NCBI GenBank assembly: GCA_000002445.1
Contig: CP000066.1
Location: 32,001 to 96,000, forward strand
Length of the DNA: 64,000 nucleotides
Direction of reading: 5' to 3'
Origin: Trypanosoma brucei
Lineage: Eukaryota
Shown: positions 28,701 to 31,700 of the stretch, one piece after another
How positions within the stretch are numbered: position 1 is the stretch's first letter
Layout of the letters: each line of letters opens with the position of its first letter
Position numbers: made by a program

Positions 28701-31700
28701 TAGTACAATATTAATATTATTAATGATAGGAGAGTGTTGTGAGTATGTGTACACCAATATGATGATAAAAGTGGTGGTGAACAAAATGAAAATCGAAAAC
28801 AGGAGCACTTAAAAAGATGTCAATGTTGACATGAGAGCTAGTGAGTGAATGTGATAGCACGAATATTTTTAATATCGACGGAAAGCCAAAAGGGAAATAG
28901 GAGGAAAACATAATGAAATATGCGTAGTTTCGGACACAAGCGTGACGGTGGACATTATTTTGTACAAAGAAATGATCTAGCGTGAAATGTGGAAATGACA
29001 GAGTCCAGTAAACAGCCTATGTTGAATCATTACGGTATCCGCAGAAGCAGTAAAAGCAAACAAAAAATGATTCAGGAAAACACTGTGGTCTATATATCAC
29101 TAATAAATGGATATATTCAACTGTGGAAATGATGTTACAGACTGATTTTTTTAATATGATGGCAAATCCTAATGTGCGGCGGCTGTGGTAACCAGGCTGA
29201 TTAAAATAATAAATTAGATCTTCTTTAAATAGCAGAATCTAGAAGATCCTATTATCTGTTGTAAATATCCTACTTTGTAGATTTGTTTTAGAGTTGTGGG
29301 AGGATGTCGTAGAGGTGTTTTAGAACCCGTTTATTTTAGTCGGAGCTAACTATACGGAACTAATAGCTTTTTTATCGGCTCATCAGGATTTGTAACTTAT
29401 ACTGGAAAAGCCGAGATGGGGAATAAAATGTGGCTCATAAGCTTTTACGACTCCAGGTGCGTCTAAATCGACCGCGAAAACAAAGCCAACAATCAATAAA
29501 CTAGAAAGGAAGCCATAGAGAGTTTGGTAGAAAAGGAAGACAGTACAACAACCGGCCATCTCGACGGTGTAAGTCTTATTAACCACATTTTTCGGCACGA
29601 CGGAGTGCCCCAAAATGGTCTCACACAAGCTAGCAACGGACTTCTATATAGTGAACATTTACTGCAAGAAAACGCAAATACTATCAAATCATAGTCATCA
29701 GAAGCACCGACTTCAGAGAAGGATGCAGTAGACGTAGACATGCATATACAGTACAAGACCTCAAATAAAGCCAAAATAGAAAATTACTAACGCAAATTCA
29801 GGCAAAAGCAGTAAATTTTACTGAACAGTACATGAGGACAATGACACATTTAATAGTAAAGCTATTATATGGCGACATACCGGTGGAAGATGATGAGTGA
29901 ACAACTCAGGGACGGTCGTGATCAACTAAAAGCACTACGATTATTGGAGTGACTAGAAGCTGTATCCAAGCCGGAACACTGCAGGTAAATGGACGAGAGT
30001 AAAAATGACAGAAGTGGGATGAAGGCTTGTTGTGATTGTTAAATTACGACCAGAAATCTGCCAAGAAGATCACAGCTACCACCTCCCATACAAGGCGCCC
30101 ATAAACCCTAGGAATGAAACTGCTTTACGTCGGCAGCGGATAAAACGCATAAATGCCGCCTGCTCAAAATGCAATCACCTAACCATTAAGTACAACACAA
30201 GAATAAGCGAAACGCAAACGAACACAACATGAAGCCGACAGTGGAAATAGTATGGATCTGGTCGGTTATTATTGTCGCCCCAAAACTGGAAAGCGCGCCC
30301 CAACAGTGCCTACGACTAACGCCAAAGTAACTGATTTCTGCACAATGGACGACTACTACCTTGCAATCGCACATGAACTAAGGCAATGGCTAAAAACGGC
30401 AGCTCAAGCATTTGAGCAAATACAAGGCCAAAAAAGACTTTTGCAGTTAGCACGAGAAAGCAGAAAAAGAACAATCACCGAGACAGCATATTATTTCCTT
30501 TCGGTGCTAGCAGAACTCAACCACCAGCAGGCGACAAAACAGTTTCATAACTTTCTAGAGAAAACATTCGCGGCAGTACAAGCCATTCCGCAGAAACGGA
30601 CAGAACACGCAACAACGTACGCCCTGACAAAGCTAGCAACAACCGAAGACACCATTGTGCATGCAACGGAGGAAGCTCACTCAAAAAATGACAAGTAAGA
30701 CCAAAGAATGGCGGTGTGTGGCTACGATTTCGTTCAAAGGCGCACATAAAACAGCATGTGAAACAGAGGCAGACACAGCAACTAACGCCTTCATCAACAC
30801 TTAAACACCTTCCGCAGCTAAACGACAAGCCTCTAGCAGCAAAGGTTATTTTCTGGGTCTCAGGTGATAAATACACGGACTCGCAATGGAAAACGGGCGC
30901 TGACAACAAACATTGTGAAAAAAAGCAGTCGGTGGCCAGGCGTTGTCGACGGCGACTGCAAGGGTGGCGGTAACTCAGTCGGCACATTCCGGCGCTGGAA
31001 TACAGTTAACTCAACCTCAACACACCACCAGAAAAACTAAGCGACGACGACCACAAGCTAAACCCCAACGAACGGCAACTACAGATATCAGACCACGAAC
31101 TAGCAACAACGCTAAAAGCAGCACTACAGGCAAAGTATACGTCATCACAGCTACTAAGAGACTTAGAACTCAGAATAGCAGCACAACGTCCACCGGGCAC
31201 AGTATTAGGAGGTTTTCTGAACCAGAATAAAACCAAGGGAAAATGCCTCTCAGCAAACGAAGTTGCAACCCTGATATTCGGCACAGGTAACGGAAAAGTT
31301 AATGATAAACCTTTATAACCTCTAGAACAAGACTGAAATTCAATTCCAACAAGTGAGGCACCCATAAAAGGCACAACCAAATAAATTGAAACAGAACCAG
31401 ACTTCGGTACGGTAATGGTATACTATTACGATAAAAACATAATTTAGCAAGAAACAATGCAAGGCATATGTCAAGGCGAAGGAGAAGGAAAAACAGAACA
31501 AACAGGAGAAAAGAAAGAAGCGGATAATAAAGCAACAACTGAATGCGTAGCCACTGAAGAGAAATATTGTGGATACGAAAAGGTGTGATTGGAATAAGGA
31601 AAAGAACCAGTGAAAAGTCAAAGAAGCTTCAGTTATCATTTATGTTGTGATTAAAGCCCCTCTTTTGCTTGAATTTTTGATTCTATAATTATTTTTGTAA

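What the first reader, a model, noticed from the sequence alone, without database searches (positions are those of the whole stretch)
28921..28980. Recurrent conserved ~60-nt block ~100-150 bp downstream of 70-bp repeat blocks
I find at least ten copies, starting near 1160, 4160, 5012, 15531, 19570, 28921, 32122, 43012, 54400 and 60943. The approximate consensus is GTGCGTAGTTTCGAACACAAACATGA(C/T)GAT(N3-5)CATCAT(N)ATACACAAGGAGATGATGG. Examples are gtgcgtagtttcggacacaagcgtgacggtgg (28921), gtgcgtagtttcgaacacatacatgacgatatacatcat (32122) and ttgtagtttcaaacacaaacataatgataggcatcatcatacagaagaagatggtgg (54400). It contains a short inverted repeat (ATGAT…ATCAT) that could form a hairpin. It lies at a fairly fixed offset after the repeat core. 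The 70-bp repeats themselves are well known, but I do not recognise this adjacent conserved block as a named element. It could be a structural part of the recombination substrate, a protein-binding site, or a small RNA.
Basis: seen in the sequence. Interest (0 to 1): 0.6.

Follow-up and report, generated by a model that had tools for sequence, protein, structure and literature searches.

The report
Conserved flank beside VSG 70-bp repeats
The recurring ~70-nt block is real, but it is only the best-preserved stretch of a ~0.8-kb non-coding flank that follows the 70-bp repeats in front of trypanosome surface-antigen (VSG) genes; it shows no sign of an RNA structure, a coding function or a separate identity.

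Summary
The window is a silent VSG gene array of Trypanosoma brucei TREU927. All genes lie on the + strand, and there are 19 arrays of 70-bp repeats. Each copy is recovered by a leave-one-out profile (E 7e-13 to 2e-3), with no other hit. The copy at 60943 is wrong (the true one is at 61076), and copies at 39224 and 47872 were missed.

The block is not a discrete element. It occupies positions 133-200 of an ~800-nt colinear module found, whole or truncated, after 16 of the 19 repeat arrays. Pairs of copies align over 750-800 nt at 58-60% identity. The block is a local conservation peak, but a modest one (about 0.61 against 0.48).

Profiles trained on the window also find the block and module in two non-orthologous T. 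equiperdum loci. The proposed hairpin shows no covariation, RNAalifold predicts no pairs, fold z-scores are near 0, Rfam gives no hit, and all six frames are full of stops.

Best reading: this is the 5' part of the "co-transposed region", spread and inherited together with the 70-bp repeats. It is unnamed in the literature I could reach, but ordinary in kind.

The parts
1160..1236 (+). block copy 1 (after the 70-bp unit at 952-1017)
   Evidence: nhmmer E 3e-12; leave-one-out E 3.9e-6
4159..4238 (+). block copy 2
   Evidence: nhmmer E 3.7e-16; leave-one-out E 8.4e-10
5012..5089 (+). block copy 3. The module is truncated right after it.
   Evidence: nhmmer E 9.3e-17; leave-one-out E 3e-12; module hit hmm 11-203
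15531..15609 (+). block copy 4
   Evidence: nhmmer E 2.9e-15; leave-one-out E 1.1e-10
19562..19638 (+). block copy 5
   Evidence: nhmmer E 1.7e-12; leave-one-out E 3.7e-6
28921..28999 (+). block copy 6, the one at the finding's coordinates
   Evidence: nhmmer E 4e-15; leave-one-out E 3.4e-9; sequence read
32124..32199 (+). block copy 7
   Evidence: nhmmer E 7.2e-10; leave-one-out E 1.8e-3
43010..43092 (+). block copy 9 (carries a 9-nt insertion)
   Evidence: nhmmer E 3e-10; leave-one-out E 9.9e-6
   Evidence: nhmmer E 1.1e-9; leave-one-out E 1.1e-3
54400..54467 (+). block copy 11
   Evidence: nhmmer E 1.9e-15; leave-one-out E 6.8e-13
61080..61150 (+). block copy 12.
   Evidence: nhmmer E 3.2e-10; leave-one-out E 2.2e-4
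1027..1820 (+). full ~0.8-kb flank module (hmm 3-802) containing block copy 1
   Evidence: module nhmmer E 3e-146 (training copy); blastn against 54304-55090 gives 805 nt at 59% identity, E 8e-36
4052..4590 (+). module (hmm 2-536), cut off by (ATA)79 at 4584-4820
4886..5081 (+). truncated module (hmm 11-203); not used to build the profile
   Evidence: E 6e-20
7409..7703 (+). module fragment (hmm 182-463). The block core is deleted; the junction reads ATGCACAGT|GTATAGTGCACAG.
   Evidence: E 8e-16; sequence read
10122..10342 (+). module fragment (hmm 192-410). It starts just after the block position, directly after the 70-bp unit.
   Evidence: E 3.5e-15
15453..16199 (+). full module (hmm 5-802), upstream of an A-type VSG
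19448..19689 (+). truncated module (hmm 16-262); not used to build the profile
   Evidence: E 4.7e-14
22989..23298 (+). module fragment (hmm 447-760); the block is absent by deletion
   Evidence: E 6e-20
28787..29178 (+). module (hmm 7-447) around the finding's copy; not used to build the profile
   Evidence: E 1.1e-31
32022..32783 (+). full module (hmm 3-802), upstream of a B-type VSG
39096..39900 (+). full module (hmm 7-802)
   Evidence: blastn against 968-1692 gives 755 nt at 60% identity, E 3e-39
42933..43049 (+). module fragment (hmm 60-176)
   Evidence: E 1.6e-9
47725..48513 (+). full module (hmm 2-802)
50559..50972 (+). module with an internal deletion (hmm 21-72 and hmm 460-797); the block is lost
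54316..55071 (+). full module (hmm 15-802), upstream of a B-type VSG
60945..61738 (+). full module (hmm 4-795)
53928..54302 (+). example 70-bp repeat array (5 units). The window holds 19 arrays. The other 18 lie at 952-1017, 3967-4034, 4799-4871, 7228-7300, 10062-10126, 12884-12945, 15371-15441, 19357-19421, 22894-22964, 25881-25944, 28706-28779, 31946-32012, 35783-35928, 39024-39069, 42787-42858, 47569-47720, 50463-50535 and 60777-60937.
   Evidence: TRF; nhmmer with a 70-bp profile

Best explanation
The block is the best-preserved island (profile positions 133-200) of an ~800-nt non-coding module that begins right after the last 70-bp repeat unit of a VSG cassette. In other words, it is the 5' part of what the field calls the co-transposed region.

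The module was spread through the silent VSG archive together with the 70-bp repeats, by cassette duplication and gene conversion. Since then it has decayed to about 58-60% pairwise identity and has suffered frequent truncations and internal deletions.

The block recurs at a fixed offset because it is physically part of the same inherited unit as the repeat, not because it is an element in its own right. It most likely has no separate function. At most it is a remnant of upstream cassette homology.

Shown here: recurrence, strand, anchoring to the repeat, colinear extension, association with both VSG classes, presence in another genome, and absence of coding or RNA-structure signal.

Inferred: spread with the repeats, persistence by descent with or without occasional conversion, and lack of an independent function.
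For: 1. The window is a T. brucei TREU927 VSG array. VSG_B, Trypan_glycop and Trypan_glycop_C domains are found, one VSG is 100% identical to a TREU927 VSG, and there are 19 70-bp arrays.
2. There are 12 block copies, all on the + strand, 138-202 nt after the repeat core. The distance to the VSG ATG varies from 1.4 to 2.0 kb.
3. Homology is colinear far beyond the block. Examples: 968 vs 54252, 805 nt at 59%, E 8e-36; 968 vs 39045, 755 nt at 60%, E 3e-39; 15392 vs 54252, 804 nt at 58%, E 2e-29. An 806-position profile hits after 16 of the 19 arrays, including 8 arrays whose copies were not used to build it (E 4e-3 to 1e-31, most <= 1.6e-9), plus one orphan fragment that was also not used.
4. 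The block is only a modest peak. Mean pairwise identity is 0.53-0.65, against a module mean of 0.43-0.50 and 0.60-0.75 for the 70-bp unit. In 10 independent copies, identity to the consensus is 0.67 in the block and 0.58 in its flanks. The island right after the repeat (hmm 1-60) is equally conserved, at 0.66-0.74. The non-coding spacer upstream of the repeats is at 0.53-0.58.
5. The block is dispensable. It is deleted or decayed in cassettes that keep other parts of the module (7251, 10082, 22918, 50486; L002 2780 and 5459).
6. The same module lies upstream of A-type VSGs (15392, 47670) and B-type VSGs (31964, 54252). The repeat-proximal module and the VSG-proximal flank pair up differently between cassettes, so the parts have reassorted.
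7. Profiles trained on the window find the block (4 sites, E 4e-14 to 4e-5) and the module in two non-orthologous T. equiperdum loci. Three of the four blocks lie 186-202 nt after the start of a 70-bp unit hit.
8. There is no coding signal, no RNA structure and no Rfam match.
Against: - In 7 of 8 well-preserved modules the block window is within the top 1-7% of windows. In 8 of 10 independent copies it is better conserved than its flanks. Some extra constraint on it therefore cannot be excluded.
- Non-coding homology that survives next to VSGs as different as the A and B types needs either recent spread, homogenisation or selection, and I cannot tell these apart.
- Truncation end points cluster at the 3' edge of the block (hmm 176-205, four events). 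This could mean the site matters for recombination, or it could be an artefact of local alignments ending at the edges of conserved islands.
- Only about 106 kb of sequence from this clade could be examined.
Confidence: 0.7

Rival explanations
1. The block is a selected cis-acting DNA element, for example a binding site for a recombination, chromatin or replication factor, or a site that sets the 5' limit of VSG gene conversion. Under this reading it sits within an otherwise neutrally decaying flank.
For: It is the conservation maximum, or close to it, of the flank in 7 of 8 full modules. It is better conserved than both flanks in 8 of 10 independent copies, including T. equiperdum copies. Its offset from the repeat is fixed. 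Four module break points fall at hmm 176-205. Deleting the whole co-transposed region is reported to raise switching (Davies et al. 1997, as cited in PMC2900300).
Against: The excess conservation is small, about 0.1 in identity. Another island (hmm 1-60) is as conserved, and the upstream spacer is nearly so. Only 4 columns are invariant across 16 copies, all A or T. The block is missing or decayed in 7 of 19 cassettes here, four of which keep other module parts, and it is decayed in 2 of 5 L002 modules. The clustering of break points may be an alignment artefact.
Confidence: 0.15
2. The block is transcribed into, or acts as, a small structured RNA or hairpin.
For: Copies 4159 and 54399 have a perfect ATGAT/ATCAT stem. 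The alternative helix pairs in 81% of cells, and only 13-17 of 500 shuffles reach its covariation score. The co-transposed region of an active expression site does give unstable transcripts (PMC5698767).
Against: RNAalifold predicts 0 pairs. MFE z-scores range from -2.6 to +1.4 with a mean near -0.2, and the folds differ between copies. The alternative helix is made of complementary triplet repeats: pairing stays at 63-69% when slid by +/-3. It gained no compensatory change from the 4 new copies, and 63 of 500 shuffles reach its pairing percentage. Rfam gives nothing at gathering score and nothing in the block at E <= 1.
Confidence: 0.03
3. The block and its surroundings are very old, decayed 70-bp repeat units. 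The flank would then be just the degenerate 3' end of the repeat array.
For: By eye, the 3' end of the block (GAAGATGATGG AGA...) followed by GGGAGAGACAGAGTTTAGTGTACAGAC resembles the TRR triplets plus the GGAGAGTGTTGTGAGTGTGTATATAC core (15 of 27 matches by hand). In cassette 10082 the 70-bp unit joins the module exactly at this point.
Against: A 70-bp profile built from 19 units finds no hit in any block or module at E < 1 across the window. It finds nothing better than E 1.2 (negative bit scores) against the 806-nt module consensus alone. The spacing of the conserved islands is not about 75 nt.
Confidence: 0.06
4. The block is a relic of a short protein-coding sequence or upstream ORF. Several copies begin with ATG and stay open for 20-45 codons.
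For: Copies 15530, 28920 and 5011 are open for 21-30 codons in one frame; by hand translation, copy 19561 reads open for about 46 codons from an ATG, but the translation of that copy was mis-anchored, so this is not a tool result. The core is free of indels in most copies.
Against: Stops interrupt that frame in at least 5 of 12 copies. Third codon positions are not less conserved than the others (0.41 / 0.52 / 0.52 for positions 1 / 2 / 3; two rows were mis-anchored, so this figure is rough). Every module carries 5-25 stops in each of the six frames. A minus-strand 165-aa ORF has no relative among 5.8 billion proteins.
Confidence: 0.02
5. The similarity is a chance resemblance between A-rich, low-complexity flanks.
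For: The sequence is A/G-rich, and the strict consensus matches only one site.
Against: Leave-one-out E-values run down to 7e-13, with zero false hits in 128 kb of both strands. Pairwise alignments of 750-800 nt reach E 1e-29 to 1e-39. Independent T. equiperdum copies are found at the expected offset.
Confidence: 0.01

Closest known systems
[quoted passage not shown]
   Same: The position is the same: immediately 3' of the last 70-bp unit, on the VSG strand, upstream of the VSG. It is non-coding. By definition it would be copied along with the VSG whenever conversion starts in the repeats.
   Different: The CTR is described as unique to each VSG cassette (Kim & Cross 2010, PMC2900300) and is used as a single-copy probe (PMC5698767). 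Here its 5' ~0.2-0.8 kb belongs to a diverged family (58-60% identity) shared by 16 of 19 cassettes in the window and present in T. equiperdum. Whether expression-site CTRs carry the module was not tested.
70-bp (76-bp) repeats of T. brucei VSG cassettes
   Same: They have the same genomic distribution and strand. The block is always within about 200 nt of one (12 of 12 in the window, 3 of 4 in the external loci). Both are purine-rich on the VSG strand.
   Different: There is no detectable sequence similarity to the repeat profile. The block occurs once per cassette rather than in tandem. It is less conserved (about 0.6 against 0.60-0.75 pairwise identity).
3' cassette homology: VSG C-terminal domain, 3'-UTR 16-mer and downstream spacer
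   Same: This is another conserved cassette-boundary segment. It is shared between otherwise dissimilar VSGs and has similar pairwise identity (0.53-0.58). Together with the module it forms one conserved inter-VSG segment. The 16-mer lies 160-328 nt upstream of the 70-bp arrays.
   Different: The 16-mer has a documented role in VSG mRNA stability (PMC5698767; my own knowledge). No role is known for the block or the module.
Conserved upstream flank classes of other antigen gene families, e.g. the ups sequences of Plasmodium falciparum var genes (from my own knowledge, not tested here)
   Same: These are non-coding 5' flanks that are more conserved than the variable antigen genes they precede, and that exist as families reassorted among genes.
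   Different: The ups regions contain promoters and correlate with gene class and chromosomal position. This module occurs with both A- and B-type VSGs, in silent arrays without promoters.

Membership tests
70-bp (76-bp) repeat unit | Sequence match to the unit: TRR triplets, GT-rich core GAGAGTGTTGTGAGTGTGT, and AT-rich segment | tested here: not met
   A profile of 19 units finds no hit at E < 1 in any block or module. Its best hit against the module consensus is E 1.2 with a negative score.
70-bp (76-bp) repeat unit | Head-to-tail tandem arrangement with a period of about 75 nt | tested here: not met
   TRF reports tandem arrays only for the true 70-bp units. The block occurs once per cassette.
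VSG co-transposed region | Lies between the last 70-bp unit and the VSG start, on the VSG strand | tested here: met
   The block starts 138-202 nt after the repeat core and 1.4-2.0 kb before the VSG ATG, always on the + strand like the VSGs.
VSG co-transposed region | Copied with the VSG into an expression site during gene conversion | not testable with these tools
   No expression-site or switched-clone sequence was available.
VSG co-transposed region | Sequence unique to each cassette, as described in PMC2900300 | tested here: not met
   An ~800-nt module is shared by 16 of 19 cassettes, with pairwise identity of 58-60% over 750-805 nt.
Structured non-coding RNA | Match to a curated RNA family | tested here: not met
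   Rfam gives 0 hits in the window at gathering score. At E <= 1 in 53900-55900, the only hit is a sub-threshold SNORD26-like match outside the block.
Structured non-coding RNA | Base pairs supported by covariation | tested here: not met
RNAalifold predicts 0 pairs. The alternative stem is weak (13-17 of 500 shuffles), tolerates a 3-nt slide, and gained nothing from 4 added copies.
Structured non-coding RNA | Folding energy lower than that of shuffled sequence | tested here: not met
   The z-scores of the 12 copies run from -2.6 to +1.4 with a mean near -0.2, and the structures differ between copies.
Protein-coding sequence or uORF | A conserved open frame with relaxed third codon positions | tested here: not met
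   Stops occur in at least 5 of 12 copies. Identity by codon position is 0.41 / 0.52 / 0.52. There are 5-25 stops per frame in all six frames of the modules. A protein search found no homologue.
Dispersed paralogous flank module of VSG cassettes | Many copies with significant, colinear similarity that extends beyond the block | tested here: met
Dispersed paralogous flank module of VSG cassettes | Present at other loci or in other genomes of the clade, in the same position relative to 70-bp units | tested here: met
   The block and module are found in T. equiperdum loci L002 and L003, which are not orthologous to the window.

The most novel reading that the evidence does not exclude
The repeat-proximal ~0.2-0.8 kb of the co-transposed region is not unique filler. 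It would be a conserved module whose core, the block, is kept by selection as a cis-element. Such an element might be a factor-binding or strand-invasion / branch-migration control site that helps set where VSG gene conversion starts or stops just downstream of the 70-bp repeats. The clustering of module break points at the 3' edge of the block (hmm 176-205) would be its footprint.
Probability: 0.1. Interest if true: 0.6.

Novelty: new member of a known kind. Interest (0 to 1): 0.25.

Why it matters
The result tidies up the anatomy of the VSG cassette. The conserved segment between VSGs does not stop at the 70-bp repeats. In most cassettes it continues for up to about 0.8 kb, so the statement that every cassette has a wholly unique co-transposed region (PMC2900300) needs qualifying.

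At 58-60% identity the module is probably too diverged to serve as a substrate for homologous recombination (my inference from general knowledge of the homology dependence of T. brucei recombination). Models in which heterology downstream of the repeats blocks branch migration are therefore little affected.

Practically, probes, guide RNAs or read mapping aimed just 3' of the 70-bp repeats cannot be assumed to be single-copy. The module profile could also serve as an extra landmark for annotating cassette boundaries. If the block turned out to be under selection, it would offer a testable handle on how the 5' limit of conversion is set.

Tried and rejected
- Strict consensus search: only 1 match at <=3 mismatches. 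The copies are too diverged for pattern matching, so I switched to profiles.
- Coding relic: rejected. In one search two rows (19559 and 61074) were anchored in the wrong frame, so the codon-position figures are rough. The stop counts do not depend on that.
- Hairpin or structured RNA: rejected.
- Decayed 70-bp unit: not supported.
- First pairwise-identity script: it gave inconsistent, asymmetric values, evidently an error in my alignment handling. I discarded it and redid the analysis with MAFFT pairwise alignments.
- First fuzzy-regex scan: timed out.
- Getting more T. brucei DNA. Exact-protein look-ups of TREU927 VSGs were not on record. A metagenome scan for the 70-bp core returned nothing. 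One T. equiperdum contig (L001, 2.4 kb) held no repeat or module. Two further T. equiperdum loci did work.
- Literature. The 1980s papers that sequenced VSG 5' flanks (Aline 1985, Campbell 1984) and Marcello & Barry 2007 are not held. I therefore cannot exclude that the flank homology was noted there. Full-text searches for the block's sequence strings found no trypanosome paper.
- The bacterial promoter/terminator scan, and the phage, plasmid and E. coli collections, were not used because they do not apply to a trypanosome.
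Full report
**What the window is.** The window is purine-rich on the + strand throughout. It carries about 20 tandem units of roughly 3 kb each. ORFs on the + strand match the Pfam families VSG_B, Trypan_glycop (A-type) and Trypan_glycop_C. One of them is 100% identical to a VSG of Trypanosoma brucei brucei TREU927 that lies on a 1.65-Mb contig. 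TRF and a profile search find 19 arrays of the classical 70-bp repeat, all on the + strand, with one to five units each. The conserved 16-mer of the VSG 3' UTR lies 160-328 nt upstream of most arrays. The unit therefore reads: VSG, 3' UTR, about 200 nt of spacer, 70-bp repeat(s), flank, next VSG. This is a silent subtelomeric VSG array.

**Checking the observation.** Reading the ten listed positions shows related sequence at nine of them.
- The strict consensus matches only one site at three mismatches or fewer, so the copies are diverged.
- A profile built from the aligned copies finds exactly twelve sites, all on the + strand, with E from 9e-17 to 1e-9. The next-best hits have E >= 4.3.
- To avoid circularity I left each copy out in turn. 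Every left-out copy was recovered (E from 6.8e-13 to 1.8e-3), and no additional site scored below 0.01.
Only E >= 20 hits lie nearby. It sits at the end of a second, degenerate 70-bp unit (60867-60937), and the true copy of that cassette is at 61076-61150.
- The copies at 39224 and 47872 had been missed.
- The block starts 138-202 nt after the start of the GT-rich core of the last repeat unit. Its distance to the VSG start codon varies from about 1.4 to 2.0 kb. The block is therefore anchored to the repeat, not to the gene.

**The block is part of something longer.**
- A multiple alignment of the 700 nt after each repeat shows several conserved islands besides the block.
- Self-comparison of the window shows that the homology zone of each cassette runs from the VSG 3' end through the repeat and, in many cassettes, 600-800 nt further.
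- Pairwise blastn gives single colinear alignments. 968 vs 54252 gives 805 nt at 59%, E 8e-36. 968 vs 39045 gives 755 nt at 60%, E 3e-39. 15392 vs 54252 gives 804 nt at 58%, E 2e-29.
- An 806-position profile built from eight good copies places the block at positions 133-200. It hits downstream of 16 of the 19 repeat arrays. Eight of those arrays, plus one orphan fragment, had contributed nothing to the profile (E from 4e-3 to 1e-31, most <= 1.6e-9).
- Three cassettes (12906, 25901, 35879) have no module.
- Four cassettes keep parts of the module but lack the block through deletion (7251, 10082, 22918, 50486).

**How special is the block within the module?**
- In MAFFT pairwise alignments of the eight full modules, the 60-nt block window has a mean identity of 0.53-0.65. 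The module mean is 0.43-0.50 (SD 0.05-0.09), and the 70-bp unit is at 0.60-0.75. The block window is within the top 1-7% of windows in seven of the eight modules.
- In ten copies not used to build the module profile (four from the window, six from T. equiperdum), identity to the consensus is 0.67 in the block and 0.58 in its flanks. The block is higher in eight of the ten. The island immediately after the repeat (positions 1-60) is just as conserved, at 0.66-0.74.
- The non-coding spacer upstream of the repeats averages 0.53-0.58 across 13 cassettes.
- The block is therefore a real but modest local maximum. It is not an outlier.

**Tests of specific interpretations.**
With 16 sequences the result is the same. 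RNAalifold predicts no pairs. The twelve copies fold into different structures, with z-scores from -2.6 to +1.4. An alternative stem (CATYATC with GATGRTG) pairs in 81% of cells, and 13-17 of 500 shuffles reach its covariation score. However, it is built from complementary triplet repeats, it keeps 63-69% pairing when slid by three columns, and it gained no compensatory change from four added copies. The tool's own caveat puts such values within what unconstrained related sequences give. Rfam has no match.
- *Coding.* The frame that starts at the frequent ATG is interrupted in at least five copies, and third positions are not relaxed (rough). Every frame of every module holds 5-25 stops. A 165-aa minus-strand ORF has no homologue.
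- *Decayed 70-bp unit.* The 70-bp profile finds nothing in blocks or modules, and nothing better than E 1.2 against the module consensus alone.

**Related sequences from elsewhere.** TREU927 DNA could not be retrieved. Two VSG relatives led to T. equiperdum loci: L002 (21.5 kb, GCA_003543875.1) and L003 (20.7 kb, GCA_001457755.2). They share no orthologous stretch with the window.
- Profiles trained only on the window find the block at L003 17953 (E 4e-14), L002 18030 (1e-8), L002 11977 (4e-5) and L002 7754 (1e-8).
- The first three lie 186-202 nt after the start of a 70-bp unit hit. The last is an orphan fused behind a VSG fragment.
- The module profile hits after 5 of 5 assessable arrays in L002 and 3 of 5 in L003.
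- The feature is therefore general to the T. brucei clade, not a local peculiarity of this array.

**History of the module.** The same module precedes A-type VSGs (15392, 47670) and B-type VSGs (31964, 54252). The repeat-proximal module and the VSG-proximal flank have different partners. Cassettes 19379 and 60889 share 633 nt at 75.5% just upstream of the VSG, yet their repeat-proximal modules do not align by blastn. Cassettes 968 and 54252 share the repeat-proximal module but almost nothing nearer the VSG. End points of truncated modules cluster at positions 176-205 and 447-463 of the profile. The flank is thus a mosaic of reassorting sub-modules. [quoted passage not shown]

**Comparison with what is known.** By position the block lies in the co-transposed region. 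The accessible literature treats that region as unique to each cassette. [quoted passage not shown] Ridewood et al. use it as a single-copy sequence that gives unstable transcripts (PMC5698767). I found no paper that describes a conserved block or module there. However, the 1980s flank-sequencing papers and Marcello & Barry 2007 were not available. The module is not a member of the 70-bp repeat family (tested, not met) and not an RNA family. It is best filed as a further, weakly conserved component of VSG cassette flank homology.

**Verdict.** The interpretation as a discrete 60-nt element with a hairpin is not supported. The most likely explanation (about 0.7) is passive: the block is the least-decayed stretch of a flank module inherited and spread together with the 70-bp repeats. 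A selected cis-element remains possible (about 0.15), given the modest conservation excess and the clustering of break points. It cannot be tested without genome-wide orthologous comparisons or functional data. Interest is low to moderate (0.25).

Noticed in passing
window 45967-46420: Downstream of the intact A-type VSG (44277-45962) lies a T-rich stretch. It holds 25-28-nt tandem repeats (46073-46129, 46180-46233, 46330-46392) and interstitial telomere hexamers (AGTTAGGGTTAGGGTTA near 46303; further GGGTTA motifs near 46091 and 46115). AT skew collapses to 0.03 in 46-48 kb. It looks like a relic of a formerly telomere-proximal VSG end embedded in the array.
   Followed up: partly
window 3967-5089: This stretch reads: 70-bp unit, module (hmm 2-536), (ATA)79 at 4584-4820, a second 70-bp unit, then a truncated module (hmm 11-203). 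Repeat and flank are duplicated in tandem with no VSG in between, which shows that the module travels with the repeat rather than with a gene.
   Followed up: partly
module profile positions 176-205 and 447-463 (e.g. window 5081, 43049, 7409, 10122; 22989, 50636, 29178, 7703): End points of truncated or internally deleted modules cluster at two places, each at the edge of a conserved island. This could reflect recombination- or deletion-prone sites, or it could be an artefact of where local alignments end.
   Followed up: no
window 10727-11891, 19808-20860, 62164-62787; L003 9249-9681: A second, better-conserved family (70-82% identity over 400-630 nt) occupies the VSG-proximal part of the upstream flank in several cassettes and in T. 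equiperdum. It combines with different repeat-proximal modules. The whole co-transposed region therefore seems to be built from reassorting families rather than unique sequence.
   Followed up: partly
window 57200-60400 and 57998-58098: One cassette has no 70-bp unit upstream of it. It does carry an orphan fragment of the module (hmm 655-757, E 2e-6).
   Followed up: no
window 60639-60799 and 4584-4820: Long pure triplet tracts, (AAT)54 and (ATA)79, lie directly 5' of 70-bp units. These are the classical (TAA)n tracts of VSG flanks.
   Followed up: no
window 55164-55236: A weak SNORD26-like match (22.6 bits against a gathering score of 44, E 0.08), outside the block. It is most likely chance.
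   Followed up: no
L003 687-8712 vs 14197-17832: In the T. equiperdum OVI contig, the 70-bp units are on the - strand at 687-752, 4774-4840 and 8665-8712, and on the + strand at 14197 and 17762. A strand switch of the VSG array therefore lies within this locus.
   Followed up: no
module profile positions ~380-450 and ~515-530 (e.g. window 54690-54760): A second conserved island (GGATATATGC...GCGACTGTGGTTTTTAATATGGTGG...CCTAAT) is followed by a short pyrimidine-rich stretch ending in AG (TTTCGTCTCATCAG). It might be a cryptic trans-splice acceptor in the flank. This was not tested.
   Followed up: no
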